From Actinomycetes bacterium (GTDB lineage: Bacteria; Actinomycetota; Acidimicrobiia; Acidimicrobiales; Ilumatobacteraceae), in assembly GCA_029782355.1 (NCBI GenBank), contig JAKOUY010000036.1, forward strand, positions 2,193 to 66,192: DNA of 64,000 bases. Reading direction: 5' to 3'. Under the pieces are notes generated by a model. It did not search any database, was not told where the DNA came from, and saw nothing but the letters and a program-made list of their open reading frames with translations. Positions 8,069 to 59,319 of the stretch are shown here, in pieces. Every line of letters begins with the position of its first letter. The stretch's first letter is position 1. A program made the translations under genes and the position numbers.

Positions 8069-11000
8069 TCAGGTGCGGGCGATCTCCCGCTCCTCGAAGG
8101 TCTCGATGATGTCTCCCGGCTTGAGATCCTGGAAGTCGGACAGGCCGATGCCGCACTCGAAGCCCTCGCGGACCTCGCGGACGTCGTCCTTGAACCGGCG
8201 CAGCGATTGGATCGAGCCCTTCCAGATGATCGTGCCGTCGCGCAGGAAGCGGACCTTCGAGCCACGGGTGATCTGCCCGCTGAGCACGTAGCACCCGGCG
8301 ATGGCGCCGATCCGCGGCACCCGGAAGATCTCGCGGACCTCGGCCTCGCCGGTGATCACCTCTTCGAACTCGGGGGCGAGCATGCCGACCATGGCCCGCT
8401 CGATGTCCTCGAGCAGCTTGTAGATGATCTCGTACAGGCGGACCTCGACGTGCTCGGCCTCGGCCATCTCCCGGGCCTTGCGGTCCGGGCGGACGTTGAA
8501 CCCGATCAGCGTGGCATTGGTGGTGGCCGCCAGGCTGATGTCGTTCTCGGTGATCGACCCCACACCACGGTGGACGAACGCCAGCTTGACGTCGTCGCGC
8601 TCCAGGCGGCGCAGCGACTCGGTGACGGCCTCCAGCGAGCCCTGCACGTCGGCCTTCAGCACCAGGTTCAAGGTGGCGACCTCGCCGGCCTGGATCTGGC
8701 TGAAGATGTCCTCCAGCTTGACGCCCCGCTGGACGCGGGCATCGCCACGCTGAGCCTTGAGCCGCTGGCGCTGCTCACGGGCCTCGCCCACGGTGCGGGC
8801 GGTCTTCTCGTCGGCGGCGGCACGGAACTCGTCGCCGGCGTTCGGCACGCTCTGCAACCCGAGCACCTGCACCGGGGTCGACGGGCCGGCCTCCTTGATC
8901 TGCTGACCCTTGTCGTCGATCATCGCCCGGACCCGGCCCCACGCCGCGCCGGCCACGATCGGGTCGCCGACCTTCAGCGTGCCCTTGTCGACCAGAATCG
9001 TGGCCACCGGGCCGCGGCCGACGTCGAGGTTGGCCTCCAGGACGATGCCCTTGGCCCGCCCGGTGGGATTGGCGGTCAGCTCCTCCAGCTCGGCGACGAC
9101 GACGAGTTGGGCGAGCAGATCATCGACCCCGAGGTTCTGCTGGGCGGACATCTCCACGGTGATCGTGTCGCCACCCCACGACTCGGGCACCAGCTCCTGC
9201 TCGGAGAGCTGGGAGAGCACCCGCTGGACGTCGGCGTTGTCCTTGTCGATCTTGTTGATCGCCACGACGATGGGCACCTCGGCGGCGCGGGCGTGGTTGA
9301 TCGCCTCCACCGTCTGGGGCATCACGCCGTCGTCGGCGGCCACCATCAGCACGACGATGTCGGTCACCTGCGCGCCACGGGCGCGCATCTTGGTGAACGC
9401 CGCGTGACCCGGGGTGTCGATGAAGGTCACCTCGCCCTCCGGCGTGGCCACCTTGTAGGCGCCGATGTGCTGGGTGATGCCGCCGGCCTCGCCGGCCACC
9501 ACGTTGGCGTTGCGGATCCGGTCGAGCAGGGTGGTCTTGCCGTGGTCGACGTGACCCATCACGGTCACCACCGGCGCCCGAGGCACCTGCGAAGCCTCGT
9601 CCTCGTCGTCGCTGTCGTCGAACAACGCCTGCAGCTCGAGCTCCTCCTGCTGGCCGGGTTCGACCAACAGCAGGTCGGCGCCGATCTCCAGGGCGAAGAG
9701 CTCCATCTGCTCGTCGGAGAGGGTCATCGTGGCGGTGACCATCTCGCCGTTCTGCATCAGGAAGCGGATCACGTCGGCCGGGGTGCGGTTCAGCTTGGGA
9801 GCGAACTCCTGGCTGGACACCCCCCGCTCGACCACGATGGTGCCCTCCGGCACCGGGGCCGAGGAGGCGGTGTACGACGAGTTGTAGTTGGGCTGCAACT
9901 CGTCGAAGTCACGGCGACGACGAGCGCGGCTCTTCTTGCGCGGTGCCCGGCGCTGGCCGCTCGGGCGACCGCCGCCACCGCCTGGCGGGCCACCAGGCCC
10001 GCCGGGACGCGGGCCGAAGCCGCCACCGGGACGCGGGCCACCGGGGCCACCACCCGGACGCGGTCCGAAGCCACCGGGCCGCGGGCCGCCAGGACCGCCG
10101 GGCCGGCCGCCGACACCGGCGGGGCGCGGTCCGCCCGGACGCGGCGCGCCCGGACCACCGGGGCGGGCCGTGTAGCTGCCGGGTCGGGACTGCGGGCGAG
10201 CCGAACCGGGCGGCGGCGGGATCGGGCGACCGGATGCCGACAGCGGGCGACCCACGCCGGGCGGCGGCGGGATCGGGCGACCGGATGCCGACATCGGCCG
10301 GGGTCCGGGGGTCGGAGGCATGCCGGGCGGTGGGGCCGCCGGACGTACAGCGGGGCCGCCGGCTGCTGCCGGCGGGCGCGGCGCGGCGGACGGCGGCGGC
10401 CCGGACGGGCGCGGCGCGGCCGGACGGGGCGGCTCGGCGCTCGGCCGGCTGCTGACGATGCGTCGCGGCTCGTCGTCGGTCGGTGCCGTCGACGCCGACC
10501 CGGCGGGGGCCGGCATGTCGGCCGGGCTCGCCGCGGCCGGGGCCGCGCTCCGGGCGGGCGCGGCGGGGGCTGCGGTTCGGGCGGGCGCGGCGGGCGGAGC
10601 CGGGGGCGTCTCGGCCACCGGGGCCGGTGACGGGGCGGAACTCGGCGCCGGCGCGGGCTCGGGAGACGGGCTCGGCGGGGCGGCCACCTCGGGGACCGCC
10701 GCCGGAGCCGGGGTCGGCGGGGCGGCGGGCGGGGTCTCGACGGGCACCGCCGGGGCGGGGGCCGGGGACGCCTCGGTGACGGCATGCTCGGCGACCGGCG
10801 CACCCGGCACCTCGGCGTCGGCCGGCGCGGCGTCAGCGGTGGCCTTCTTCGGGGCGGCCTTCTTCGCCGCAGCCTTCTTGACCGGCTTGGGCTCCTCGGG
10901 CTGCTCCGGGCGGGTCAGGCCGTCGCGCTCGGCGCGGCGACGCAGCCGGTCGGCCTGGGCCTCGATCAGTGTCGAGGAATGGCTCTTCACGCCGACGCCC

Positions 11001-11071
11001 ATGCGGTCGGCCAGCTCCATCATTTCGGTGTTCGTCATGCCGAGCTCTTTGGCCAGCTCGTGCACGCGCAT
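8069..11071 (-). CDS. infB: Translation initiation factor IF-2
   Basis: ORF 8069..11275. Start set at ATG 11071 ([20 protein letters not shown], the canonical IF-2 N-terminus) with AAGGAAAGG upstream. Long Pro/Ala/Gly-rich linker. GTPase motifs [21 protein letters not shown]. Confidence 0.95.
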
Positions 11072-11088
11072 GTTCTTCGCCAAGCCTG

Positions 11089-11424
11089 TCAGCCTTTCCT
11101 TGGCTCTGCTGGTCCGGGAACGGCGTCCCGGGCCGTTGATGATGTTCGCACGTCGGCGCCAACCGGTCCGAACGAGATGAGCAATCCGTCGAGCGCCCCG
11201 GCGTCGAGCGGACGCCGCCACGCCCGCTCGAAGGCCTTGCGCCGCCGGGCGGTGTCCAGGCACGCGGCCGAGCACAGCCAGGCCCCACGCCCGGGGGCGG
11301 TGCGGCTGACCTCGGCACCGGCGGGACCGACCACGCAGCGCACCAGGCGCGCCTGGACGTCGCGTCGCCGGCAGCCGATGCAGGTCCGCAGCGGTTGGCG
11401 GGGCTCACTCGCTCGGTGCGTCAC
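11089..11424 (-). CDS. ylxR: YlxR/RnpM family (DUF448) RNA-binding protein
   Basis: ORF 11089..11424. It has the RTCIGCR motif and sits between nusA and infB. The exact start is uncertain because it overlaps the nusA end. Confidence 0.75.
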   Translation of the reverse strand: MTHRASEPRQPLRTCIGCRRRDVQARLVRCVVGPAGAEVSRTAPGRGAWLCSAACLDTARRRKAFERAWRRPLDAGALDGLLISFGPVGADVRTSSTARDAVPGPAEPRKG

Positions 11425-27681: not shown

Positions 27682-29352
<1,671 letters not shown>

Positions 29353-29445
29353 CCGAGCGAGGCTAGCGGCCGGGGCGCCTCGGCTCTCACCGTGATCTCA
29401 CCAGGCGTTCAACCGGGGGCAACCGGCGCCGATCAGACTGGCGCG

Positions 29446-30774
29446 ATGTCGGGCATGCTGATCACGGCGCTGGCCGCCGCGGGAACGCTGGTGGCACCGC
29501 TGGGCGTGGCACAACACCAGCCACGGTCGTCCGCCGCCGGCTGCGCCACCGTCGTGAGGCCGGGAGCCGACGTCACGGCCGCGCTGGGCGACGCGCTGGT
29601 CGCCGCCAGCGCCGAGCCGGACCCCCGAGTCGTCGGGCCCGCCGGCGCTCCCCAGGGTCGGGTGTACCTGCCGGCGGGCGAGTACGGGCTGTCCCAGGTG
29701 ACGGTGCCCTCCAACGTCCGCCTGGAGATCGACCCGGGGGCGACCCTGCACCCGGTGCCGACCAGCCGCCCGACGCGGGGGCGCGATTGGGGCATGTTCG
29801 TGTTCGGGACGCCCGACCAGCCAACTCGCAACGTCACGGTGGTGGCCGGTGACGGCTGCGGCGGGCCGGGCACCCCGACCGCGGCGAACAAGCCGGCGTC
29901 GACCGACTTCCGCGGCAACCTCCCGGAGACGGGCATGCACAACATGGCCGTGCCACTGGCCGGATGGAACACCGAGGCGATGTGGGTCCTCGACGTCGAC
30001 CCGGGACACTGGCAGGTCGACGAGCAGGTCACCGGCTTCCTGCTGCACTGGGCCCTCGACGTCGAGATCGGGTCGGTGTTCTCCATCCAGAACCCGGCTC
30101 GCCAGCCCACCGGGATCGGGCCGGTCCCCGGCGTCACCAGCCGGACGACCGTCATGATGTTCGACCCGCACGAGGGGATGCCCGTGCCGGCCGACGAGGC
30201 CGACGCCCGGCTCCCGCAACGGATCCACGTCCACGACCACTACAACATCCTCTCGCCGTCCGGCCAGGGACCGAACCAAGTCCGCTCGTGCATCGACTGC
30301 CGCTTCGAGCGGATCTTCAGCCACGGAGGCGTGGCCCTGCGGATCGAGACCGACGGGATCCGCCGGGTGACCGACTGCACGGCCACCGGTCCCAATGGTC
30401 AGGGGTTCACCACCTACGCCATCGTCGACCGCCTCGTGGCCGAGGACATCGTCGGCGCTGACGGCAATCGCGCCGCGATGTTGACCCCGCACTGCCTGGA
30501 CAGCGGGGTGGTGACCGTCCGCCGGGTCACCGGCTACAGCGAGTTCCAGACCGCGGTCGCCGCAGCCCGCGACCGGGGCAGCCGCTCGGGCGGGTTCGCC
30601 GCCGGCAGCCGGATCGACGAGGTGCGCGCCTGTCCCGGCGACGCCGCCCAGGAGCCGCACCCCGATCGGGACAGCTACCTGCCGGCGACCTCGCAGGTCG
30701 CCGTCGTGGACGCCTCGCCCACGGTCGTGGTGACCCCGGCCCTGCCCTGGCCGGGGTGCGTCAACCCACCGTGA
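29446..30774 (+). CDS. Hypothetical secreted protein (signal peptide; possibly beta-helix-like)
   Basis: The last 442 aa of the artefactual ORF 26974..30774, from ATG 29446 (MSGMLITALAAAGTLVAPLGVAQ). I recognise no family. Confidence 0.5.
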   Translation: MSGMLITALAAAGTLVAPLGVAQHQPRSSAAGCATVVRPGADVTAALGDALVAASAEPDPRVVGPAGAPQGRVYLPAGEYGLSQVTVPSNVRLEIDPGATLHPVPTSRPTRGRDWGMFVFGTPDQPTRNVTVVAGDGCGGPGTPTAANKPASTDFRGNLPETGMHNMAVPLAGWNTEAMWVLDVDPGHWQVDEQVTGFLLHWALDVEIGSVFSIQNPARQPTGIGPVPGVTSRTTVMMFDPHEGMPVPADEADARLPQRIHVHDHYNILSPSGQGPNQVRSCIDCRFERIFSHGGVALRIETDGIRRVTDCTATGPNGQGFTTYAIVDRLVAEDIVGADGNRAAMLTPHCLDSGVVTVRRVTGYSEFQTAVAAARDRGSRSGGFAAGSRIDEVRACPGDAAQEPHPDRDSYLPATSQVAVVDASPTVVVTPALPWPGCVNPP

Positions 30775-30780
30775 ACCGGT

Positions 30781-32190
30781 CTACAGCTCGGCTCCCCAGT
30801 CCCGCGTCTCCAGCTCCTGCTTGACCCGCACGAGGAACCCGGCGGCGTAGGCGCCGTCGAAGGCCCGGTGGTCCCAGCTCATCGCCAGGTTGCCGACCGG
30901 GTGGATGGCGATGCCCTCCTGACCGCCCGGCAGGCCGACCACCACCGGCTTGCGGACGATGGCGTCGGTGGACAGGATCGCCACCTGCGGCTGGTTGATG
31001 ATCGGCATCGTCAGCACGCTGCCCGCCGAACCGTTGTTGGAGATGGTGAACGTCCCCCCGGTGATCTCGTCCGGGCCGAGCTTCTTCGATCGGGCCCGGC
31101 CGGCCAGGTCGTTGATCTCCTGGGCGATGGCCCGCAGCCGCTTGGTCTCGGCCGACCGGATCACCGGCACCAGCAGTCCCTCGTAGTCCATGTCGACGGC
31201 GATGCCGATGTCGACGAAGCGGTGGACCACCAGGTCGTCCTCGCCGACGCTGGCGTTGAGATTGGGGAACGCGGCGAGGGCCTCGACGACGGCCCGGGTG
31301 ATGAACGGGAGATAGGTCAGCCCGAACCCCTCGGCCTGCCGCCACTCGTGCTTCACCGCCGAGCGGGTCAGGTCGACGTTGGCATAGTCGACCTCGACCA
31401 CGCTGAAGGCGTGCGGGCTCACCGCCTTGCTCATGATCATGTGGTTGCCGGTCAGCTTGCGGATCTTGCTGAGCTTGACCGAGCTGTCCCGCTGGCCGGC
31501 CGTCACGGCCGGCCCCGCGGCCCCGGCAGCGGCAGGCGCGACCGGCGCGGGAGACGGTGCCGCGGCGGGCGCCGCGGCCGGCGATGGGGCCGCCGGGGCC
31601 CGGCCGGCTGCGCCGGCACCGGACGCGGCCAGGCGGTCGATGTGGTCGAGCACGTCGTCACGGGTGATCCGCCCACCGGGCCCGGTGGCGGTGATCGACG
31701 CCGGGTCGAGGCCGTGCTCGCCGAGCAGACGACGGACGACGGGGGACACCAGCAGGCCCTCCCCGGCAGCCGGAGCCGGCGGGGGTGGGGTGGCCGGCGC
31801 CTCGGCCGCCGGAGGAGCCGGCTGGGGGTCGGGGGCGGCCGGCTCACGGACCACCGCGGCGCTCGCCGGCGGCGGGGCGGCCGGCGGCGCCGGCTGCGGC
31901 TCCGGGGCGGGCGCCGGGGCAGGCTGCTCGGCGGGCTGGGCCGGCGGCGAGGCGGCCGCGTCGCCGACGACGGCCACCACGGTCCCCACCGCGACCGTGT
32001 CACCCTCGTTGGCCCGGATCTCGCTGAGGACGCCGGCGGACGGCGAGGGCACCTCGGTGTCGACCTTGTCGGTGGAGACCTCGAACAGCGGCTCGTCGGC
32101 CGCGACCTGGTCGCCGACCTGCTTGAACCAGCGGGTGATGGTCCCTTCGGTCACCGTCTCACCCAACTGCGGGAGTTTCACTTCGGCCAC
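30781..32190 (-). CDS. Dihydrolipoamide acyltransferase, E2 component of a 2-oxoacid dehydrogenase complex
   Basis: In ORF 30781..32601 from GTG 32190 (VAEVKLPQLGETVTEGTI..STDKV, lipoyl domain) with GAGGAG upstream. It has Ala/Pro linkers, a subunit-binding domain, and a catalytic domain with DHRAFDG. Confidence 0.9.
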   Translation of the reverse strand: MAEVKLPQLGETVTEGTITRWFKQVGDQVAADEPLFEVSTDKVDTEVPSPSAGVLSEIRANEGDTVAVGTVVAVVGDAAASPPAQPAEQPAPAPAPEPQPAPPAAPPPASAAVVREPAAPDPQPAPPAAEAPATPPPPAPAAGEGLLVSPVVRRLLGEHGLDPASITATGPGGRITRDDVLDHIDRLAASGAGAAGRAPAAPSPAAAPAAAPSPAPVAPAAAGAAGPAVTAGQRDSSVKLSKIRKLTGNHMIMSKAVSPHAFSVVEVDYANVDLTRSAVKHEWRQAEGFGLTYLPFITRAVVEALAAFPNLNASVGEDDLVVHRFVDIGIAVDMDYEGLLVPVIRSAETKRLRAIAQEINDLAGRARSKKLGPDEITGGTFTISNNGSAGSVLTMPIINQPQVAILSTDAIVRKPVVVGLPGGQEGIAIHPVGNLAMSWDHRAFDGAYAAGFLVRVKQELETRDWGAEL

Positions 32191-32201
32191 GGAGGCTCCT
32201 C

Positions 32202-33635
32202 TCAGACGTTCAGGCTGCGCCCGGTGAGCGACAGCACCGTCTCGCCGAACAGCTCGGTCAGACTCGGATGGGGTTGGATGAACTCGGCGACCTCGGCCAC
32301 CGTGGCTTCCCAGTTGACGGCCAGGTAACCGCCGCTGAGCTGCTCGGTGACCCACGGCCCGACCATGTGCACGCCGAGGATCTGGCCCGCCGTGCCATCG
32401 GCGTTGCGCCGGGCGATGACCTTCACCAGCCCGTCGAGCTCGCCGAGGATCTTGGCCCGGCTGTTGGCCCGGAACTGGTGCTTGGCCACCACGACGTCGT
32501 GCCCGGCAGCCCGGGCGGCCTCCTCGCTGGGTCCGACGAAGGCCACCTCCGGGTGGCAGTAGATGGCCCACGGCACCCGGTCGTAGTCGACCGGGGCGCA
32601 CGGCTCACCGAGGATCTGCTTGGTCACCAGGATCGCCTCGGCGTAGCCGACGTGGGCCAGCTGCGGGGTGTTGATCAGGTCGCCGACGGCGAAGACACCC
32701 GGCTCGCCGGTCCGGCAGTACTCGTCGACCTCGACGAACCCGCGGTCGGTGACGGTGACCGCCGTGCCCTCGAGGCCGAGCTGATCGGCGAACGGGCGCC
32801 GGCCGACGCTGACGACCACGGCGTCGACCTCGACGCTCGTGCCGTCGCCGAGATGGACGGTGGTGCCGCCATGGCCGTTCGGCGTGTGGCCCGTGACCTG
32901 GACGCCGGTGCGGATGTCGATCCGCTGCTTCTTGAAGGCCCGGACCACCACGTTGGCGACATCGGGATCGAGGCCGGGCAGGATCTTGGGCAGGCCTTCG
33001 AGGATGGTGACCGTCGAGCCGAGGTCGGCGAACGTGCTGGCGAACTCGCAGCCGATCGCCCCGCCGCCGATGACCGCAACCCGGGCGGGCAGCTCGGTGA
33101 GCATCAGCACTTCGTCACTGGTCATCACCGGACCACGGTGGCCGGGCGGCGGCGGCTCGAACCCGGGGATCAGCCGCGGCACCGACCCGGCGGCGAGGAT
33201 CACGTGATCGCCGGTCACCGTCGAGGCCGAGCCGTCGGGGTGGGCGACGGTCACGGTCTTGCCCGGCCCGAGGTGGCCGATGCCCGACAGGATCGTGATC
33301 TTCTTCGAGCCCATGAAGGCGGTGAGGCCCTTGACGATCTCGTCGACGATCTTCTGCTTGCGCGCCTGGGACGTGGCGAAGTCGACCGTCGGGGCACCGG
33401 CGTTGATGCCGAAGTCGGCGGCGTGGGTCACGTGGCGGTGCACGGCGGCCGTCTCCAGGTAGGCCTTGGCCGGGATGCAGCCGCGGTTGAGGCACGTCCC
33501 GCCCATCGCGTCCTTCTCGACGATCGCCACCTTCAGCCCGGCCGAGGTGGCGTACAGCGCCGATCCGTAGCCGGCCGGCCCACCGCCGATGACCACCACG
33601 TCGAAGCGGTCGGCCTGGTCCTGCGCGGCGTTCAT
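32202..33635 (-). CDS. lpdA: Dihydrolipoyl dehydrogenase (E3)
   Basis: ORF 32202..33635. VVIGGGPAGY, the redox-active GGTCLNRGCIPAK, and a C-terminal HPSLTE-type motif are present. Confidence 0.9.
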   Translation of the reverse strand: MNAAQDQADRFDVVVIGGGPAGYGSALYATSAGLKVAIVEKDAMGGTCLNRGCIPAKAYLETAAVHRHVTHAADFGINAGAPTVDFATSQARKQKIVDEIVKGLTAFMGSKKITILSGIGHLGPGKTVTVAHPDGSASTVTGDHVILAAGSVPRLIPGFEPPPPGHRGPVMTSDEVLMLTELPARVAVIGGGAIGCEFASTFADLGSTVTILEGLPKILPGLDPDVANVVVRAFKKQRIDIRTGVQVTGHTPNGHGGTTVHLGDGTSVEVDAVVVSVGRRPFADQLGLEGTAVTVTDRGFVEVDEYCRTGEPGVFAVGDLINTPQLAHVGYAEAILVTKQILGEPCAPVDYDRVPWAIYCHPEVAFVGPSEEAARAAGHDVVVAKHQFRANSRAKILGELDGLVKVIARRNADGTAGQILGVHMVGPWVTEQLSGGYLAVNWEATVAEVAEFIQPHPSLTELFGETVLSLTGRSLNV

Positions 33636-54148: not shown

Positions 54149-55189
54149 ATGAGCGGACCGTCGATCGAGCTGCCGAGCGACGACCCCGAGGCCCTGTACG
54201 AGCTGTTCGAGCGGCACGGGTGGGGTGACGGCCTGCCGCTGGTCGCCCCGACCGCGGCGCGGGTCGAGGCAATGCTGGCCGAGGGCGCGCCCGGACAGGA
54301 CCCCGACGAGGTCGTCGCCGTGCTGGAGCCGCGCCGTGGTCTGGCCACCCGGCGGATCATCGCCGTCAATGCCGTGCTGGCCGGGTGCCGGCCGGCCCAG
54401 CTCCCCGTCGTGCTCAGCGCAGTGCGCGCCCTGGCCCGCCCGGAGGTCAACCTGCGCGGGGTCAACGCCACCACCCACCCGGTCGCTCCGCTGCTGATCG
54501 TCCACGGGGCCGTCGTCCACGGCGCCGGGTACCGCTACGCCAGCGGCGCCCTGGGCCCCGGCAACCGGGCCAATGCCACCACCGGGCGGGCGGTACGGCT
54601 GATCCTGACCCATGTCGCCGGGGCCACGGTGGGCGACGGTGATGCGTCCACGCAGGGCGGGCCGGCGAAGTACGGCTTCTGCGTCGCCGAGCACGAGTCC
54701 GCCTCCCCGTGGGGTGGGTTCGCCGCCGGGCGCGGGGTGCGCGCCGCCTCGGCCGTCACCGTGCACTGTGGTGAGGGCCCGCACAACGTCCACGACATGG
54801 AGCACGGCGATCCGCAGCTGATCCTCGACAAGCTGGCCTCGGCCATGGCCACCCTCGGCCAGAACAACGCGTGCATCAGCCAGGGCGAGTACGTCGTGCT
54901 GCTCTGCCCGGAGCATGCCGCGGCGATGGCCGCCGCCGGGCTCGACCGGGCGACCATCGCCGAGCGCCTGTGGGAGCGGGCCCGGCACCCGGCGGCGCTG
55001 CTGCGCCGGCACTTCGCCACGCTGGCGTGGGCGCCGTGGATGATGGCGGCCGGCGACGACGACCTGCTGCCGATGACCGAGTCTCCCGCCAACATCCTGG
55101 TGCTCGTCGTGGGCGGCGCGGGCAAGCACTCCTCGATCGTTCCCAGCTGGGGCATGACCCGCAGCGTCACCCTGGCCGTCGAGCCATGA
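54149..55189 (+). CDS. Conserved hypothetical protein (family not recognised)
   Basis: ORF 54149..55189, 346 aa, with coding-like composition. It lies 10 nt after the DksA-like gene and about 20-35 nt before the UGSC gene. Distinctive N-terminal GWGDGLPLVAPT segment. Confidence 0.5.
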   Translation: MSGPSIELPSDDPEALYELFERHGWGDGLPLVAPTAARVEAMLAEGAPGQDPDEVVAVLEPRRGLATRRIIAVNAVLAGCRPAQLPVVLSAVRALARPEVNLRGVNATTHPVAPLLIVHGAVVHGAGYRYASGALGPGNRANATTGRAVRLILTHVAGATVGDGDASTQGGPAKYGFCVAEHESASPWGGFAAGRGVRAASAVTVHCGEGPHNVHDMEHGDPQLILDKLASAMATLGQNNACISQGEYVVLLCPEHAAAMAAAGLDRATIAERLWERARHPAALLRRHFATLAWAPWMMAAGDDDLLPMTESPANILVLVVGGAGKHSSIVPSWGMTRSVTLAVEP

Positions 55190-55208: not shown

Positions 55209-56021
55209 ATGGCGGGAGGTTCGATGCTGATCTACGAGCCGTGCGGATCGATCGCCGGGGAGGATGGTGCGCCACGGCGCACGCCGGGCATCCGCCCGTC
55301 ACTGGTCGGGCGGCGCCTCGGCGTGCTCGACAATGGCAAGCCCAATGCCGGCGTGGTGCTCGGTGCCATCGCCCAGACCCTGGTCGGTCGGCACGGCGCC
55401 GTGGCCGGACTGGTCACCGGCAAGGGCCCAGGTGCCAATGCGGCCACCGCCGCCCGTCCGGAGGTCCTCGCCCGGCTGGGCGACGAGGTCGACGTCACGC
55501 TGGTGGGCTCGGCCGATTGAGGGAGCTGCACGTCGTGGAGTGTCCACGACGCCGTCGAGCTGGAGGGCCGCGGAGTCACCGCGCTCGTCGTGACCACCCC
55601 ACCGTTCCTCTCGCTGACCCGCCGGGTCGCCGCCGAGCTGGGGCGTGCGGACCTGGCCGTGCTCGTCGTCCCCCACCCGTTGGGCGGCACCGATCCGGAC
55701 GAGGTGCGCCGGTGGGGCGCCGAGTCGGCCGAGATCGCCGCCCGAGCGCTCGCCGGGACACCCGTGCCCGGATCGGACCAGGCCGAGCCGGCGCGCTTGG
55801 CCGATCTGCAGCAGACGCTGCGCCAGGACGGCGCCGAACTGCGCCTCGAGCGCATCGAGGGTGGCGTCGCCCACCTCACCCTGGAACTCGCCGACGCCCG
55901 CTGCGCCGAGTGCGTCATGCCCGCCGAGTTCATCGAGCGGTTGGCCGGCGCGGCCCTGGCGGCCGAGATCGACGGGCTGGGCGGCGTGGTCGTCCACGAT
56001 CCGCGACGGGAGGACCGATGA
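55209..56021 (+). CDS. UGSC-motif protein with a NifU-like C-terminal domain and in-frame TGA at 55518..55520: candidate selenoprotein
   Basis: ORF 55209..55520 and ORF 55590..56021 are in the same frame with no stop between them other than the TGA. The joined sequence reads ..VDVTLVGSAD-U-GSCTSWSVHDAVELEGRGVTALVVTTPPF.. The C-terminus (LRLERIEGGVAHLTLELADARCAECVMP) is NifU/Nfu-like. ATG 55224, preceded by GGGAGG, is the more likely start. Confidence 0.6.
55531..55551 (+). promoter_or_regulatory. SECIS-like hairpin downstream of the TGA at 55518..55520
   Basis: CGUCGUGGA-GUG-UCCACGACG: a perfect 9-bp stem (or 8 bp with an AGUGU loop). It starts 10 nt after the UGA. Confidence 0.5.
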
Positions 56022-56821
56022 CGGTCACCATCGATCTGGGCGGGCAGGTCGCCCTGATCACCGGCGCCGGAGCCGGGATCGGGCGGAGCATCGCCCACTG
56101 GCTGGCCGGCGCCGGTGCCCACGTGGTGATCGTCGACGGGCGCGGCGAGCGGGTCGACGCCGTGGCCGCGGAGATCGGTGACGCCGGCGGCACGGCCACG
56201 GCGCGGTGCGCCGACCTGCGCGACGACACCGCCCACGACCGCATCGTCACCGACGTCGTCGATCAGCACGGCAGGCTGGACATCGCCGTCAACAACGTCG
56301 GCATGCTGCCGGCCGGTCGGCGGACCCAGCCGTTTCTCGACTACGGGCCCGAGGACTGGCGGGACATCGTCGACCAGAACCTCACCCTCGCCGCGCTGGG
56401 CGCCCGGGCGCAGGCCGGGGCCATGGTCGCCGGTGGGCGGGGCGGGACCCTGCTGTTCGTCAGCTCCGGGGAGACCACCCGGCCGTCGCCGACCAATGCC
56501 ATCTACGCCGCGGCGAAGGCGGCGCTCAACCACCTGGTGACCAGCCTGGCGGTCGAGCTCGGCCCGGCCGGCGTGCGCGTCTTCGCCATCGCTCCGGGAA
56601 CCACGGCCACCGAGCAGGTCGTCGCCGCCCTCGACGAGGAGTACCTCGACGCCGTGGCGGCGTCGACACCGCTGCGCCGGCGGGTCGAACCCGACGAGCT
56701 CGGACGGCTGGCCGTGTTCCTCGCCAGCGACCTGGCGCGGTGCATGACGGGGCAGTTCCTCCTGGCCGACGCCGGTGCCTTCCTGTCCCGGACCCGCCCC
56801 ACGCTGCCGGGCACTGCCTAA
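56018..56821 (+). CDS. SDR family oxidoreductase
   Basis: In ORF 55202..56821 from ATG 56018 (ATGA overlap with the UGSC gene stop). ITGAGAGIGRS, NNVG, YAAAKAA and IAPG are present. Confidence 0.85.
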   Translation: MTVTIDLGGQVALITGAGAGIGRSIAHWLAGAGAHVVIVDGRGERVDAVAAEIGDAGGTATARCADLRDDTAHDRIVTDVVDQHGRLDIAVNNVGMLPAGRRTQPFLDYGPEDWRDIVDQNLTLAALGARAQAGAMVAGGRGGTLLFVSSGETTRPSPTNAIYAAAKAALNHLVTSLAVELGPAGVRVFAIAPGTTATEQVVAALDEEYLDAVAASTPLRRRVEPDELGRLAVFLASDLARCMTGQFLLADAGAFLSRTRPTLPGTA

Positions 56822-56830
56822 GGTCGGTGC

Positions 56831-57667
56831 ATGGCCGCCAGCGATCCGCCCGAGCTCGGCGTGTTCCTCGCCACCCTGACCCTCGGCAACCCGTGGTCGC
56901 CAACGGCCGATGCCGTCGTCACGGCGGCCGACGCCGCCGCGGCGGCCGGGTTCGGCCACGTCGGGATCTCCCGACCGGCGGTGTCCGCGCTGGCGGCGGC
57001 GGGCGCCGATCCCGCCGCGGTGCTGTCCGAGCGTGGCTTGCGGGTCTCCTGCCTGGAGGCGCTGTTCGGCTGGTCGACGGACGGTGACGCAGCGCGAGCC
57101 GAGGCCGCAGCAGCGCTCGACGACGCCGGCGCGGTGGGAGCCGATCTGGTGATGGCGGTCGAGCTGGGCGACCGGCCCGTCGACGTCGAGCGGGCCGCCG
57201 CCAACCTGGCGCTCGTCGCCGAGGTGCTCGGCGGGGCGGGGGTATCACCGTGCGTCGAGTTCCTGCCGTGGTCCGGCATCCCCGATCTGGCCACCGCATG
57301 GGCGGTGGTCGGTCCGGTTCCGTCAGCCCGGTTGCTGGTCGACACCTGGCACTGGGCCCGGCAACCGGGTGGACCCGATCCTCGGCTGCTGGCCTCGATC
57401 CCCGCGGATCGGGTGGCTGCGGTCCAGCTGTGCGACACCCAGCCGGGCGGCGGGCGCGGCGACCTGATGGCGGAGGCGATGACCCGCCGTCTGGATCCGG
57501 GCGAGGGCGACGCCGACATCGGCGGTGTCCTGGCAACCCTGCGGGCGATGGGCGCCGCGCCGCGCTGGAGCGTGGAGGTCTTCGATCCGCATCGCCTGGC
57601 GGCCGAGGGCCCGGCGCGCCGCGCCGAGCAGCAGTTCCGCGCCGCCCGGCGGGCGATGGCCGCCTAG
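56831..57667 (+). CDS. Sugar phosphate isomerase/epimerase family (xylose isomerase-like TIM barrel) protein
   Basis: ORF 56831..57667. The pattern ..VEFLPWS.I.D...A..V......ARLLVDTWHW......P..L..IP..R.....L.D is typical of AP_endonuc_2 TIM barrels. Confidence 0.65.
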   Translation: MAASDPPELGVFLATLTLGNPWSPTADAVVTAADAAAAAGFGHVGISRPAVSALAAAGADPAAVLSERGLRVSCLEALFGWSTDGDAARAEAAAALDDAGAVGADLVMAVELGDRPVDVERAAANLALVAEVLGGAGVSPCVEFLPWSGIPDLATAWAVVGPVPSARLLVDTWHWARQPGGPDPRLLASIPADRVAAVQLCDTQPGGGRGDLMAEAMTRRLDPGEGDADIGGVLATLRAMGAAPRWSVEVFDPHRLAAEGPARRAEQQFRAARRAMAA

Positions 57668-58269
57668 AACCCGCCGGCCTTGTCGGCGCCGAGCATGACG
57701 ACGATGGTGGCGGCACCGAGGTTGATCGGCCCGCCGCGGATGGAGATCGGCGTGGGCATGTAGGCCAGCTCGGACACCCCGAGGACCCGAGCCACCGAGC
57801 GGGCCACCGCCTCGGAGCCCGGCTTGACGTAGATCTTCGTCGTGGCCAGCTGTGACTCGATGCCGTCGGCGGTGGTCGCCTTCTGCGTGCTGAACCCCAG
57901 CGAGTCCAGGCGGGCGGTCAAGCGGCTGGCTGCCCCGTCGACGTTGGACGCATTGGCCACCATGACCACGGCGCCCGTGGTGACCAGTGGTTCGGTCGTC
58001 GTCGTGCTCGGGTCGGGTGCGGGGATGGTCGGTGACGCGGAGGCTTGGGTGACCGCCGTGGTGTCGGAGGGGTCTGCCGGCGCGGCGTCGGTCGTCGGCA
58101 GCCGCGCACCCGTGACCGGCGTGGCGACGGTCGCGGCGGGTGTCCCCGGCGGGCGCCGATCGGTGGGCAGCGCCTGGTCGGTGGCCTTCGAGCTGCATGC
58201 CCCGAGGATCGGCAGGATCACGCCGACCACCACTCGCGCCCGCCCTCGAGTCATCCCACGTCGTGCCAT
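57664..58269 (-). CDS. LytR_C domain-containing lipoprotein
   Basis: ORF 57664..58317, with a start at ATG 58269 or 58254 (..VVVGVILPILGACSS, a lipobox). The C-terminal VMVANASNVDGAASRLTARLDSLGF............TKIYV is LytR_C-like. Confidence 0.65.
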   Translation of the reverse strand: MARRGMTRGRARVVVGVILPILGACSSKATDQALPTDRRPPGTPAATVATPVTGARLPTTDAAPADPSDTTAVTQASASPTIPAPDPSTTTTEPLVTTGAVVMVANASNVDGAASRLTARLDSLGFSTQKATTADGIESQLATTKIYVKPGSEAVARSVARVLGVSELAYMPTPISIRGGPINLGAATIVVMLGADKAGGF

Positions 58270-58338
58270 CCACACCCTCCGGTTCGTCCGTCCAGATTGC
58301 CGGACCGGACGACCCAAGACAACGCGGCCAGCGGCGGG

Positions 58339-59319
58339 TCAGCGTCCGATCGTCGTCGTGGTCGTCGACCGCGCCGGCGGGCGGGAGTCCGCCGGGGAGA
58401 CCTGCGGAGTGGTGGACGACGGCGAGCGCGCCGGCGGTGTCGTCGGCGTGGCCGAGGTCGGCGTGGGTGACGGGGCCGGCGGGCTGGGCGGCGCCGTCGG
58501 AGCGGTCGGTCGCGTCGTCGGCGGCGGCAGCGCCGGCCGGGTCGTCGGGGGCGGGGCGGTGGGCCGCGTCGTCGGCGGGGACGGCCGAGTCGTCGGGGTC
58601 GGGGCGGTGGGCCGCGTCGTCGGCGGGGACGGCCGAGTCGTGGGGGTCGGCGGAGCGGTCGGCCGAGTCGTCGGCGGCAGGCTCGTGGTCGGCGTCGGCC
58701 GGGTGGTCGGGGTCGTCCCCTGGCCGTTGCCGTCGCTGTTGGCCGGCGTGGTCGTCGTCGTGCCCGGGTCGACACCACCGTTGCGAGCGCCGTCGGGCGG
58801 GTCTGTGGTGGGCAGGACCGGCGGAGCCGGTGTCGGCGTCGGTCCGGGCACCACCGGAACCGGCACCGTGCCCGCGCCGATCAGCCCGTTCGGCGTGTTC
58901 GCCCCGTTCGCCGGGACCACTCCCGACGTGGCATCGGCCGGGCCCGTCGGCGAGACGCCGGGGACGGTGGGCGGGATGGTGGTGAGGACGCCCGTTCGCG
59001 GCGTGGTCGAGTTCACCGAGCCACCGGGCGGCGTCGTCCCGCGTGGTTGGTGGTCGTGACCGAACCCGAGTTGGAGCGCCAGGACTCCCGCGCCGACGAG
59101 GATCAGGGCGGCGGCCACCCGCCCCAGCACCCGGGACCGCCACGGGACACCGACGACCGGACGCCGACCGCTGCCGTCGCCCAGCGCGTCGAGCATGGCA
59201 TCGACGGCGGAGTCTCGCCCGACGAGCTCGGCCGCGCTTGCCGGCTGCTGCAGGGATGCAAGCAATCTCAAGCACTCCGCCGAAAGCCGAGCGTCGTCGG
59301 GCGGACTCATGCCGGACAT
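58339..59319 (-). CDS. Putative anti-sigma factor: single-pass membrane protein with a Pro/Thr-rich repetitive extracytoplasmic tail
   Basis: ORF 58339..59319, immediately downstream of the ECF sigma gene. It has one TM helix (VLGRVAAALILVGAGVLAL). The C-terminal repeats are PTTRPTAP/PTTRPSPP. Confidence 0.5.
   Translation of the reverse strand: MSGMSPPDDARLSAECLRLLASLQQPASAAELVGRDSAVDAMLDALGDGSGRRPVVGVPWRSRVLGRVAAALILVGAGVLALQLGFGHDHQPRGTTPPGGSVNSTTPRTGVLTTIPPTVPGVSPTGPADATSGVVPANGANTPNGLIGAGTVPVPVVPGPTPTPAPPVLPTTDPPDGARNGGVDPGTTTTTPANSDGNGQGTTPTTRPTPTTSLPPTTRPTAPPTPTTRPSPPTTRPTAPTPTTRPSPPTTRPTAPPPTTRPALPPPTTRPTAPTAPPSPPAPSPTPTSATPTTPPARSPSSTTPQVSPADSRPPARSTTTTTIGR
58553..58648. repeat. 48-bp tandem duplication (2 units, 1 mismatch) inside the Pro/Thr-rich coding region
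   Basis: GGGGCGGTGGGCCGCGTCGTCGGCGGGGACGGCCGAGTCGT(C/G)GGGGTC at 58553..58600 and 58601..58648. Confidence 0.8.

What the first reader, a model, noticed from the sequence alone, without database searches (positions are those of the whole stretch)
55209..56021. UGSC-motif ORF interrupted by one in-frame TGA with a perfect downstream hairpin: candidate selenoprotein fused to a NifU-like domain
Two track ORFs (55209..55520 and 55590..56021) share a frame and are separated only by the TGA at 55518..55520. There is no other stop in the 69 nt between them.

Reading through gives VGSAD-U-GSCTSW. This is a U-x-x-C redox motif at the end of a predicted beta-strand, the classic position of Sec/Cys in thioredoxin-like redox proteins.

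Ten nt after the UGA starts a perfect 9-bp hairpin, CGUCGUGGA-GUG-UCCACGACG (55531..55551), with GU in the apical loop. This is the geometry of bacterial SECIS elements.

I recall a RefSeq family name, UGSC family (seleno)protein, but cannot verify it here. The C-terminal CxxC NifU-like domain fusion suggests a redox or metallocluster-handling role.

Standard gene callers would split or truncate this gene.
Basis: partly seen in the sequence, partly recalled or inferred. Interest (0 to 1): 0.8.

Follow-up and report, generated by a model that had tools for sequence, protein, structure and literature searches.

The report
UGSC selenoprotein gene with NifU-like tail
This is a real gene for a selenocysteine-containing redox protein of the already described "UGSC" family, split by gene callers at its UGA codon; it always sits next to a well-conserved, completely unannotated partner gene that probably holds the key to the family's unknown function.

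Summary
Window 55224..56021 (+) is one gene with a single in-frame TGA at 55518-55520.

Family: the joined protein matches Pfam PF24696 "UGSC family" across the TGA (132 bits). It matches NCBIfam NF041046 "UGSC family (seleno)protein" at 104 bits, below the 125-bit cutoff. The TGA aligns with an invariant Cys of a CGSC motif.

SECIS: the 9-bp hairpin meets all four published bacterial SECIS criteria. Cys-form homologues with the same peptide often form a similar stem, so the stem alone proves little. The decisive evidence comes from 120 metagenomic TGA-form homologues:
- The loop-forming Ser codon is AGT in 120/120 TGA forms and 0/76 Cys forms.
- One stem pair covaries perfectly (TGC+GTG 91, TGG+GTC 28, TGG+GTT 1).

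Other findings:
- The C-terminal CxxC domain is a diverged NifU domain.
- The UGSC domain is modelled as flavodoxin-like, not thioredoxin-like.
- The unannotated upstream ORF (54149..55189) has a match in 80/80 Cys loci, adjacent wherever listed, and is fused to UGSC in some organisms.

The family has been known since 2007-2008, so this is a new member of a known kind. No Sec-decoding genes lie in the window, so decoding capacity is untested.

The parts
54149..55189 (+). Conserved partner gene (346 aa, 'GWGDGLP...AVNAVLAGC' family). It is unannotated, with no Pfam, NCBIfam or PDB relative.
   Evidence: tblastn match in 80/80 Cys-form loci and 82/120 TGA-form loci at 60-69% identity; directly upstream of UGSC in the 60 best hits listed. 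Fused in one ORF with UGSC in L112, L117, L127, L139, L142, L151 and L153 (41-44% identity, E 1e-70 to 1e-78). More than 2400 homologues, all 'hypothetical'. No family or PDB hit. AF2 model pLDDT 84.5, with no convincing fold match.
55214..55219 (+). Shine-Dalgarno-like GGGAGG, 4 nt upstream of the likely start ATG at 55224.
   Evidence: Read directly from the sequence. Homologue N-termini (MLVYAPDG, MPIAVYAPDG) align with MLIYEPCG.
55224..56021 (+). Complete selenoprotein gene: UGSC domain plus NifU-like C-terminal domain, 265 codons with one internal Sec-UGA, ending at TGA 56019-56021.
   Evidence: Single in-frame stop. The Pfam UGSC match spans the TGA. GC3 periodicity continues in frame across the TGA: 0.85, 0.91, 0.91. 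Full-length Cys homologues P0004, P0013 and P0068 have the same architecture.
55278..55751 (+). UGSC domain (Pfam PF24696), modelled as a flavodoxin-like alpha/beta fold.
   Evidence: aa 24-181 of the 270-aa translation that starts at 55209. AF2 model of the fused Cys homologue P0004, pLDDT 89.8. Foldseek top hits are WrbA, azoreductase, ArsH and flavodoxin.
55518..55520 (+). Sec-encoding UGA, the U of the UGSC motif.
   Evidence: Aligns with invariant Cys C99 of CGSC in 18 database homologues and in 80 genomic Cys-form loci. At least 120 metagenome contigs have TGA at this column.
55527..55529 (+). Resolving Cys (TGC) of the U-x-x-C redox motif.
   Evidence: Invariant column C102.
55531..55551 (+). 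Bacterial SECIS core: 9-bp stem (55531-55539 paired with 55543-55551) and apical loop GUG (55540-55542), 19 nt from the UGA to the loop.
   Evidence: MFE -13.5 kcal/mol; all four bSECIS criteria met (criteria from PMC13188914). Family-wide: AGT 120/120 against 0/76, and covariation TGC+GTG 91 / TGG+GTC 28 / TGG+GTT 1. Formal pair count: the six inner pairs are never unpaired in 112 sequences, with 31 double-change cells against 6.8 +/- 2.0 in shuffles.
55776..56018 (+). Diverged NifU/Nfu C-terminal-type domain with a CxxC motif (CAEC at 55902-55913).
   Evidence: The window copy alone scores E = 0.14 to PF01106. Eleven of 26 orthologous copies hit PF01106, best E 1.9e-9. The profile hits PDB NifU structures 2z51, 1xhj and 2jnv at E 1.4e-3 to 2.7e-2; the CxxC is aligned in the two alignments shown, 2z51 and 1xhj. 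C43 and C46 are invariant.
56018..56821 (+). SDR-family oxidoreductase gene. Its ATG overlaps the UGSC stop (ATGA), which suggests translational coupling. It is a recurrent member of the cluster.
   Evidence: Pfam adh_short_C2 at 5.6e-54. A close same-strand SDR match lies within 1.5 kb downstream of UGSC in 32/80 Cys loci (about 30 of them directly adjacent at 50-60% identity) and in 7 TGA loci. Also present in Streptomyces L206.
56831..57667 (+). AP_endonuc_2 / xylose-isomerase-like TIM-barrel gene. It is only loosely associated with the cluster.
   Evidence: Pfam PF01261 on the identical Logan contig. A gene with the same Pfam domain neighbours the cluster in Streptomyces L206, but a tblastn match appears in only 1/80 Cys loci.

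Best explanation
Window 55224..56021 is a single gene for a UGSC-family selenoprotein. The UGA at 55518 would be decoded as selenocysteine by SelB and Sec-tRNA(Sec), recruited by the SECIS hairpin at 55531-55551, which lies inside the coding sequence.

The protein carries a U-G-S-C selenol/thiol redox centre just after strand 3, at the N-terminus of helix 3, of a flavodoxin-like domain. That domain is fused to a diverged NifU-type CxxC domain.

Shown: gene continuity, family membership, the Sec/Cys pair, a selected SECIS, the NifU-like identity of the tail, and a conserved gene cluster (partner346 - UGSC - NifU-like - SDR).

Inferred: UGSC is the redox-active subunit of a two-component enzyme whose catalytic subunit is the 346-aa partner. 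During turnover the U-x-x-C centre would cycle between the selenol/thiol state and a selenenylsulfide. The NifU-like CxxC domain would act either as a thiol relay or as an Fe-S carrier for the partner. The SDR would act on the same substrate or product using NAD(P)H. The substrate is unknown.
For: Gene continuity and family:
- There is one in-frame stop only.
- The Pfam UGSC match spans the TGA, 132 bits.
- The GC3 coding signature is continuous across the TGA.
- TGA is otherwise the normal stop in this window, 27 of 32 genes, so a site-specific recoding signal is required.

Sec/Cys pair:
- The TGA column is an invariant Cys in 18 protein homologues and 80 genomic loci.
- At least 120 independent metagenome contigs have TGA there.

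SECIS:
- All four criteria of the published model are met: 3-nt loop, 9-bp stem, G then U at the loop start, 19-nt spacing, MFE -13.5 kcal/mol.
- The Ser codon that makes the GU is AGT in 120/120 TGA forms and 0/76 Cys forms. AGT is 3.4% of Ser codons in this window.
- The pair at alignment columns 27/33 is CG 86, GC 25, GU 1, never broken.
- Given the peptide, the chance of such a hairpin is 0.0023.

Reproducibility and literature:
- An identical sequence, including the TGA, occurs in a Logan assembly of SRR15686344.
- UGSC-containing proteins are an established, abundant selenoprotein family: 255 Sec against 21 Cys sequences in GOS (PMC2398784).

Two-component inference:
- The partner has a match in 80/80 Cys loci, adjacent wherever listed, and is fused to UGSC in at least 7 complete TGA-form ORFs.
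- The NifU-like domain is fused C-terminally, fused N-terminally, or stand-alone within the same cluster.
Against: - No selA, selB, selD or tRNA-Sec lies in the 64-kb window. The only SelB-like hit is IF2. Decoding capacity of the source organism is therefore untested.
- The NCBIfam equivalog cutoff is not reached (104 against 125 bits).
- The nearest relatives of this protein are mostly Cys forms, at 57-58% identity against 56% for the best TGA form.
- Cys forms can form a similar stem.
- No Rfam SECIS family matches.
- The functional model (partner as catalytic subunit, NifU-like domain as relay, role of the SDR) rests only on gene neighbourhood and fusion. The partner has no recognizable fold relative, and no experiment exists for any family member (PMC13188914).
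Confidence: 0.88

Rival explanations
1. Pseudogene or error: a Cys-form UGSC gene suffered a recent TGC-to-TGA nonsense mutation, or a sequencing or assembly error. Only the truncated 98-aa peptide, or nothing, is made.
For: The nearest relatives are mostly Cys forms. A single base change converts TGC to TGA. Cys forms with the same peptide can already form a 7-10 bp stem. No Sec machinery is seen in the window.
Against: The window carries the TGA-form-specific signature that Cys forms lack. AGT is found in 0/76 Cys forms, including 0/12 of the TSWS subclade, and makes up 3.4% of Ser codons here. It also has the pairing Val codon GTC, which only 4/12 Cys TGG forms use. The stem is a perfect 9 bp, and GC3 and conservation are intact downstream. 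The identical TGA occurs in a Logan assembly, although that may derive from the same sample.
Confidence: 0.06
2. Two separate genes: a 98-aa N-terminal protein ending at the TGA and a 143-aa protein starting at GTG 55590, as gene callers annotate.
For: This is the call made on the identical Logan contig. A GTG exists at 55590.
Against: The 69 nt between them encode GSCTSWSVHDAVELEGRGVTALV. This stretch holds the most conserved motif of the family and has coding GC3 of 0.91. One Pfam domain spans both parts. All Cys homologues are single ORFs. No SD-like sequence was looked for or seen before 55590.
Confidence: 0.02
3. UGA is read through without selenium, for example by near-cognate Cys or Trp insertion or by a reassigned code. 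The hairpin would be a fossil SECIS in an organism that has lost the Sec trait.
For: Sec machinery is unverified. Fossil-like hairpins exist in Cys forms.
Against: TGA terminates 27 of 32 genes in the window, including the partner gene and this gene itself, so there is no code change. A lineage without SelB would not be expected to keep the rare AGT codon and a perfect stem, because Cys forms have lost both.
Confidence: 0.04

Closest known systems
UGSC-containing selenoprotein family (Zhang & Gladyshev 2007/2008; reference ABI76733.1 of Hyphomonas neptunium; Pfam PF24696; NCBIfam NF041046)
   Same: Same domain (132-bit Pfam match), the same U-G-S-C motif with Sec at the first position, and the same SECIS type. 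Stem sequence and GUG loop are shared with 120 metagenomic members. Function is unknown, as for the whole family.
   Different: The score is below the NCBIfam equivalog cutoff (104 against 125). This member carries a C-terminal NifU-like CxxC domain, which was not seen in any of the 120 sampled TGA forms; it was seen only in Cys forms (11/80 fused). The literature guessed a Trx-like fold, but the model here is flavodoxin-like.
Bacterial SECIS elements (bSECISearch consensus; E. coli fdhF type)
   Same: A stem-loop directly downstream of the UGA and inside the ORF. The apical loop is small and starts with G-U. Spacing from UGA to the loop is 19 nt, within the 16-37 nt range. The MFE is below -7.5 kcal/mol.
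   Different: The loop is very short (3 nt), and no bulged U was identified. The element is built from the codons of a conserved peptide, T-S-[W/C]-S-V-H-D, so RNA and protein constraints are intertwined. No Rfam family matches it.
NifU C-terminal / Nfu-type domain (PF01106; PDB 1xhj, 2z51, 2jnv)
   Same: About 70-80 aa. The CxxC lies at the equivalent position, and the flanking pattern is similar (DGGD-x-L-V...C-x-x-C...L...).
   Different: Strongly diverged: the window copy scores E = 0.14. It has an invariant DPR motif at its C-terminus that does not appear in the NifU matches shown, and the motif is C-A-E-C-V-x-P rather than G-x-C-x-x-C. Whether it binds an Fe-S cluster is unknown.
Multi-subunit selenoprotein reductases such as glycine reductase or D-proline reductase (GrdA/GrdB, PrdB). 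This is an analogy only, recalled from general knowledge.
   Same: A small redox-active Sec/Cys-motif protein is encoded next to a larger partner subunit. PrdB also has a UxxC motif (PMC2398784, Table 2).
   Different: No sequence or structural similarity was detected: no PF07355 hit and no relevant PDB match. The hosts are largely aerobic Actinomycetota and Myxococcota rather than Stickland fermenters. Membership was not tested beyond the Pfam scan.

Membership tests
UGSC family (Pfam PF24696) | Match to the family HMM above the gathering score | tested here: met
   132.4 bits against a cutoff of 25, E 2.5e-38, covering profile positions 16-170 of 172 and spanning the TGA.
UGSC family (seleno)protein, NCBIfam NF041046 (equivalog) | Score at or above the curated whole-protein cutoff (125 bits) | tested here: not met
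   104.4 bits, E 5.1e-30. It is the only family hit, but it falls below the equivalog cutoff, so this is a diverged member or subfamily.
UGSC family | U/C-G-S-C motif at the conserved column | tested here: met
   The TGA aligns with invariant C99 and the second Cys with invariant C102. The same holds in 80 genomic loci.
Bacterial selenoprotein gene | In-frame UGA paired with Cys in homologues, and other homologues with UGA at the same column | tested here: met
   at least 120 TGA forms, all reading through to a conserved C-terminal part.
Bacterial selenoprotein gene | bSECIS: 3-9 nt loop, 4-16 bp stem, G in the first two loop positions, 16-37 nt from UGA to the loop, MFE <= -7.5 kcal/mol (PMC13188914, Fig. 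2A) | tested here: met
   3-nt loop GUG, 9-bp stem, 19-nt spacing, MFE -13.5 kcal/mol. Covariation and the AGT signature add support.
Bacterial selenoprotein gene | The genome encodes selA, selB, selC (tRNA-Sec) and selD | not testable with these tools
   Only 64 kb is available. None is present in it, and the SelB-like hit is IF2. The source contig could not be retrieved beyond a 5-kb Logan copy.
Bacterial selenoprotein gene | Selenium is incorporated at the UGA position | not testable with these tools
   This needs 75Se labelling or mass spectrometry.
NifU C-terminal domain (PF01106) | Match to the family HMM above the gathering score (27 bits) | tested here: inconclusive
   The window copy scores 12.7 bits, E 0.14. 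Eleven of 26 orthologous copies match at E <= 0.01, best 1.9e-9. The profile of the 26 copies hits PDB NifU proteins at E 1.4e-3 to 2.7e-2.
NifU C-terminal domain (PF01106) | CxxC at the cluster-binding position | tested here: met
   Invariant C43 and C46 align with the CxxC of 1xhj and 2z51.
   The AF2 model of fused homologue P0004 (pLDDT 89.8) has five strand-helix units. Foldseek top hits are flavodoxin-fold proteins, and no Trx-fold protein appears among the 50 listed matches. The test was done on a 43-44% identical homologue, not on the window protein.

The most novel reading that the evidence does not exclude
UGSC proteins (Sec or Cys) and the unannotated 346-aa 'GWxDGLP' partner form a widespread two-subunit redox enzyme. 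Its catalytic subunit has a fold with no solved relative. It is serviced by a dedicated diverged NifU-like CxxC protein and an SDR. This would be a previously unrecognized (seleno)enzyme system, present in Actinomycetota, in MAGs labelled Myxococcota and Deltaproteobacteria, and in many metagenomes. The window shows a rare arrangement in which the Sec-bearing subunit and the NifU-like module are one polypeptide.
Probability: 0.45. Interest if true: 0.6.

Novelty: new member of a known kind. Interest (0 to 1): 0.35.

Why it matters
For annotation: this gene is split into two fragments by standard callers, as shown on the identical Logan contig, and it falls below the NCBIfam cutoff. It would therefore be missed as a selenoprotein.

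For biology: UGSC proteins are among the most abundant predicted prokaryotic selenoproteins in aquatic metagenomes, yet no function is known. This analysis gives three concrete handles:
- An obligate, highly conserved and sometimes fused partner protein that has no Pfam family, NCBIfam family or solved relative.
- A dedicated NifU-like CxxC module and an SDR in the same cluster.
- A flavodoxin-like rather than thioredoxin-like scaffold.

Together these make the family's function experimentally approachable through co-expression, pull-down and a structure of the complex.

The SECIS is also a clear case of an RNA element constraining a protein motif. The codon after the Thr-Ser/Thr pair is Trp or Cys in all TGA forms, but Tyr in 64 of 76 Cys forms.

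Tried and rejected
- Genome-contig scan for relatives. The tool seeded on a pattern that requires Cys, so it could not return TGA forms. I reused those loci as a Cys-form control set.
- Hairpin significance by whole-region shuffling (z = -0.02). This is uninformative in 73% GC DNA, so I replaced it with a Cys-form control, a synonymous re-encoding test and covariation.
- Rfam scans, gathering and E-value mode. No SECIS family or tRNA-Sec was found.
- Sec machinery in the window. There is no SelA or SelD, and the SelB-like hit proved to be IF2.
- Source genome identification. Only a 5-kb Logan copy was retrievable. The NCBI 130-kb contig is on record, but without a name or accession.
- Figure S1A of PMC2398784 ('UGSC/Unknown_1 fusion') is an image. 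I could not establish whether Unknown_1 is the 346-aa partner or the NifU-like domain.
- Partner identity. Pfam, NCBIfam, PDB sequence search with single sequence and profile, and Foldseek against PDB gave nothing convincing. The best fold matches were class-I fumarate hydratase and the Toblerone fold, at TM about 0.25.
I modelled the fused Cys homologue P0004 instead.
- My 'UGSC_N' tblastn query was out of frame, because I used 55225 instead of 55224. Its zero hits mean nothing.
- Considered and rejected: a genetic-code change (TGA is the main stop codon), two separate genes, and a thioredoxin fold.
Full report
**1. Observation**

- In the frame that opens at 55209 there is one internal stop, TGA at 55518-55520. 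The frame closes at TGA 56019-56021.
- The 69 nt between the internal TGA and the GTG at 55590 contain no stop.
- Read-through gives ...VTLVGSAD-U-GSCTSWSVHDAVELEGRG...
- A perfect 9-bp hairpin, CGUCGUGGA/GUG/UCCACGACG, lies at 55531-55551 and begins 10 nt after the UGA. It appears in the MFE structure.

The likely start is ATG 55224 (MLIYEPCG...). It follows GGGAGG at 55214-55219 and matches homologue N-termini. GC3 stays at coding level in this frame on both sides of the TGA: 0.85 before it, 0.91 in the 69-nt stretch and 0.91 after it. The stop overlaps the start of the next gene (ATGA at 56018-56021).

**2. Family**

With U replaced by C, the protein matches Pfam PF24696 'UGSC family' at 132.4 bits (cutoff 25), and the match spans the TGA. 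It matches NCBIfam NF041046 'UGSC family (seleno)protein' at 104.4 bits, which is below the equivalog cutoff of 125.

A search of 5.8 billion proteins returned 101 homologues. Most are about 175-180 aa. All those aligned have Cys at the U column, and CGSC is invariant. That is expected, because called proteins cannot contain a TGA.

The literature describes 'UGSC-containing protein' as a selenoprotein of unknown function, first noted in Hyphomonas neptunium and in metagenomes (PMC1976440). It is one of the most abundant selenoprotein families in the GOS data, with 255 Sec against 21 Cys sequences (PMC2398784). A 2026 review still lists it as uncharacterized (PMC13188914).

**3. Is the hairpin a SECIS? 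A control that mattered**

The genome-contig scan seeded on a Cys-requiring pattern, so it returned 80 Cys-form loci. I used these as a control. Cys forms that encode the same TSWSVHD peptide often form a 7-10 bp stem at the same position (L003, L015, L017, L026, L027). The reason is that TCG-TGG-AGC-GTC-CAC-GAC is nearly palindromic. The stem alone is therefore not independent evidence, and whole-region shuffling is uninformative in this GC-rich DNA (z = -0.02).

I then scanned metagenome contigs with a degenerate pattern of about 44 bits (my count) that requires TGA at the U column but leaves the Ser, Val and Trp/Tyr/Cys codons free. All 120 read through into a conserved C-terminal part. Comparing TGA forms with Cys forms:
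- The Ser codon that forms the loop is AGT in 120/120 TGA forms and 0/76 Cys forms (AGC 43, TCG 22, TCC 10, TCA 1). AGT makes up 3.4% of Ser codons in the window's own genes.
- The codon before it and the Val wobble base covary: TGC+GTG 91, TGG+GTC 28, TGG+GTT 1, never broken. In Cys forms TGG occurs with GTG 8 times and with GTC 4 times.
- The stem around the GUG loop is 6-9 bp in all TGA forms, but 0-2 bp in 68 of 76 Cys forms.

A formal pair count on 112 distinct sequences gave no unpaired cell in the six inner pairs. There were 31 double-change cells against 6.8 +/- 2.0 in shuffles, and 85.9% of cells were paired against 7-51% for slid registers.

The window's element belongs to the TGG/GTC class and has the longest stem, 9 bp. 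It meets all four criteria of the published bSECIS model (PMC13188914, Fig. 2A): a 3-nt loop, a 9-bp stem, G then U at the loop start, 19 nt from the UGA to the loop, and an MFE of -13.5 kcal/mol. Only 0.23% of synonymous re-encodings of the peptide with the window's codon usage reach a stem of 9 bp or more together with a GU loop. No Rfam family matches the element.

**4. Alternatives to Sec decoding**

- TGA terminates 27 of 32 confidently called genes in the window, so the genetic code is standard and a local signal is needed.
- A recent nonsense mutation in a Cys-form gene would not be expected to carry AGT and the pairing GTC codon.
- The identical sequence, including the TGA, occurs on a Logan contig from SRR15686344, where the caller split it into 98-aa and 143-aa ORFs.

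What remains untested is the decoding machinery. The window has no tRNA-Sec and no SelA or SelD. The one SelB-like hit is IF2 at 8069-11275. This says nothing about the rest of the genome, which I could not retrieve.

The window protein's nearest relatives are Cys forms from Acidimicrobiia at 57-58% identity and one TGA form (L129) at 56%. It therefore lies in a subclade where Sec and Cys forms are mixed.

**5. The C-terminal domain**

On its own the last ~85 aa give only E = 0.14 to PF01106 NifU. The same domain recurs in the neighbourhood of UGSC genes:
- fused to the UGSC C-terminus in 11 Cys loci;
- fused to the N-terminus in P0098;
- as a separate stretch or ~90-aa ORF downstream of the SDR or upstream of the partner.

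Of 26 copies, 11 hit PF01106 individually, with a best E of 1.9e-9. A profile of the 26 hits solved NifU/Nfu structures (2z51, 1xhj, 2jnv) at E 1.4e-3 to 2.7e-2, with the invariant CxxC aligned to NifU's in the two alignments shown. It is a diverged NifU-type domain. None of the 120 sampled TGA-form loci contained it, so a Sec-form UGSC fused to this domain is unusual within the sample. Many of those contigs are short, however.

**6. Fold**

The model has mean pLDDT 89.8 and shows five strand-helix units. The CGSC motif lies directly after strand 3, at the N-terminus of helix 3. Foldseek against PDB returns flavodoxin-fold proteins (WrbA, FMN azoreductase, ArsH, NQO1, flavodoxin) at E 1e-4 to 1e-3, and no thioredoxin-fold protein among the 50 listed matches. 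The general geometry, a redox CxxC-type motif at a helix N-terminus, is similar.

**7. The conserved partner and the cluster**

The ORF directly upstream (54149-55189, 346 aa) has no Pfam, NCBIfam or PDB match by sequence or by profile. Even so:
- It has a match in 80/80 Cys loci and 82/120 TGA loci, and it lies directly upstream of UGSC in the 60 best hits listed. At 60-69% identity it is better conserved than UGSC itself.
- It has more than 2400 homologues, all labelled hypothetical.
- It has many invariant His, Cys, Asp, Glu and Asn residues.
- In several metagenomic TGA forms it is fused in frame to the C-terminus of UGSC, at 41-44% identity over residues ~10-344 and E from 1e-70 to 1e-78.

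This is a Rosetta-stone link. It may correspond to the 'UGSC/Unknown_1' fusion mentioned in PMC2398784, but that figure is an image.

Its AF2 model is confident (pLDDT 84.5, pTM 0.85) but has no convincing PDB neighbour. The best matches have TM about 0.25 and are class-I fumarate hydratases and Toblerone-fold hydrolases.

A close SDR match lies within 1.5 kb downstream of UGSC in 32/80 Cys loci and 7 TGA loci; about 30 of the Cys loci have a directly adjacent orthologue at 50-60% identity. A Streptomyces locus has partner-UGSC-94-aa ORF-SDR-AP_endonuc_2, nearly the window's layout. Two long contigs carry two divergent paralogous partner+UGSC modules.

**8. Mechanism**

Shown: a single gene with a Sec codon and a selected SECIS, a UxxC centre on a flavodoxin-like domain, a fused NifU-type CxxC domain, and an obligate partner gene.

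Inferred, with moderate confidence: UGSC is the redox subunit of a two-component enzyme whose catalytic subunit is the 346-aa partner. The U-x-x-C centre would cycle through a selenenylsulfide. The NifU-like CxxC would serve as a thiol relay or Fe-S carrier. The SDR would link the chemistry to NAD(P)H. The substrate is unknown.

**9. Verdict**

This is a new, diverged member of a selenoprotein family known since 2007-2008, so the novelty of the finding itself is modest. The most useful by-products are the conserved unannotated partner, the four-gene cluster, the correction of the fold, and clear nucleotide-level evidence for the family's SECIS.

Noticed in passing
window 30640-30729 (-): ARAGORN calls a 90-nt 'tRNA-Arg(gcg)' here. 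The Rfam gathering scan finds no tRNA, and the sequence shows no obvious T-loop, so it is probably a false positive. It lies in a 2.8-kb stretch (29352-32202) where my crude GC3-based gene caller found no ORF.
   Followed up: partly
L204 5181-8543 and L205 3959-8534: Two paralogous partner+UGSC modules sit back to back in divergent orientation. The second is ordered UGSC, then partner (352-356 aa), then an 88-90 aa ORF that is probably the NifU-like CxxC protein.
   Followed up: no
L112, L117, L127, L139, L142, L151, L153 (also L156, L166, L087, partial): Metagenomic TGA-form UGSC genes are fused in one ORF to the 346-aa partner domain. This would give roughly 450-530-aa selenoproteins, which gene callers would split.
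   Followed up: yes
L107 28-306: A SelD-like fragment (48% identity to E. coli SelD over 93 aa) lies about 600 nt from a TGA-form UGSC gene. This hints at occasional linkage of the family to selenium-utilization genes.
   Followed up: no
L003, L015, L017, L026, L027 (Cys-form loci, about 13-35 nt after the Cys codon): Cys forms of the TSWS subclade keep a 7-10 bp 'fossil' hairpin, but with AGC (loop GCG) instead of AGT. This is consistent with recent Sec-to-Cys conversions.
   Followed up: partly
window 55536-55538 and the same column in L002-L201: The sixth codon after the U codon is Trp or Cys in all 120 TGA forms but Tyr in 64/76 Cys forms. The SECIS stem appears to dictate an amino acid of the conserved motif.
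   Followed up: partly
P0091: This 164-aa database protein has a lumazine-binding (riboflavin synthase-like, PF00677) N-terminus joined to the C-terminal two-thirds of a UGSC domain. It is probably an assembly or frameshift chimera.
   Followed up: no
window 58339-59319 (-): This ORF has a long Pro/Thr-rich repetitive region (PTTRPTAPP-like units). It lies next to a LytR_C-domain gene (57664-58317, -).
   Followed up: no
window 56018-56021: The selenoprotein's stop codon and the SDR's start codon overlap (ATGA), which suggests translational coupling. Efficient SDR translation could therefore depend on read-through of the upstream UGA.
   Followed up: no
window 8069-11275 (-): The IF2 (infB) gene has a very long Pro/Ala/Gly-rich N-terminal region. 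It was the only SelB-like hit in the window.
   Followed up: yes
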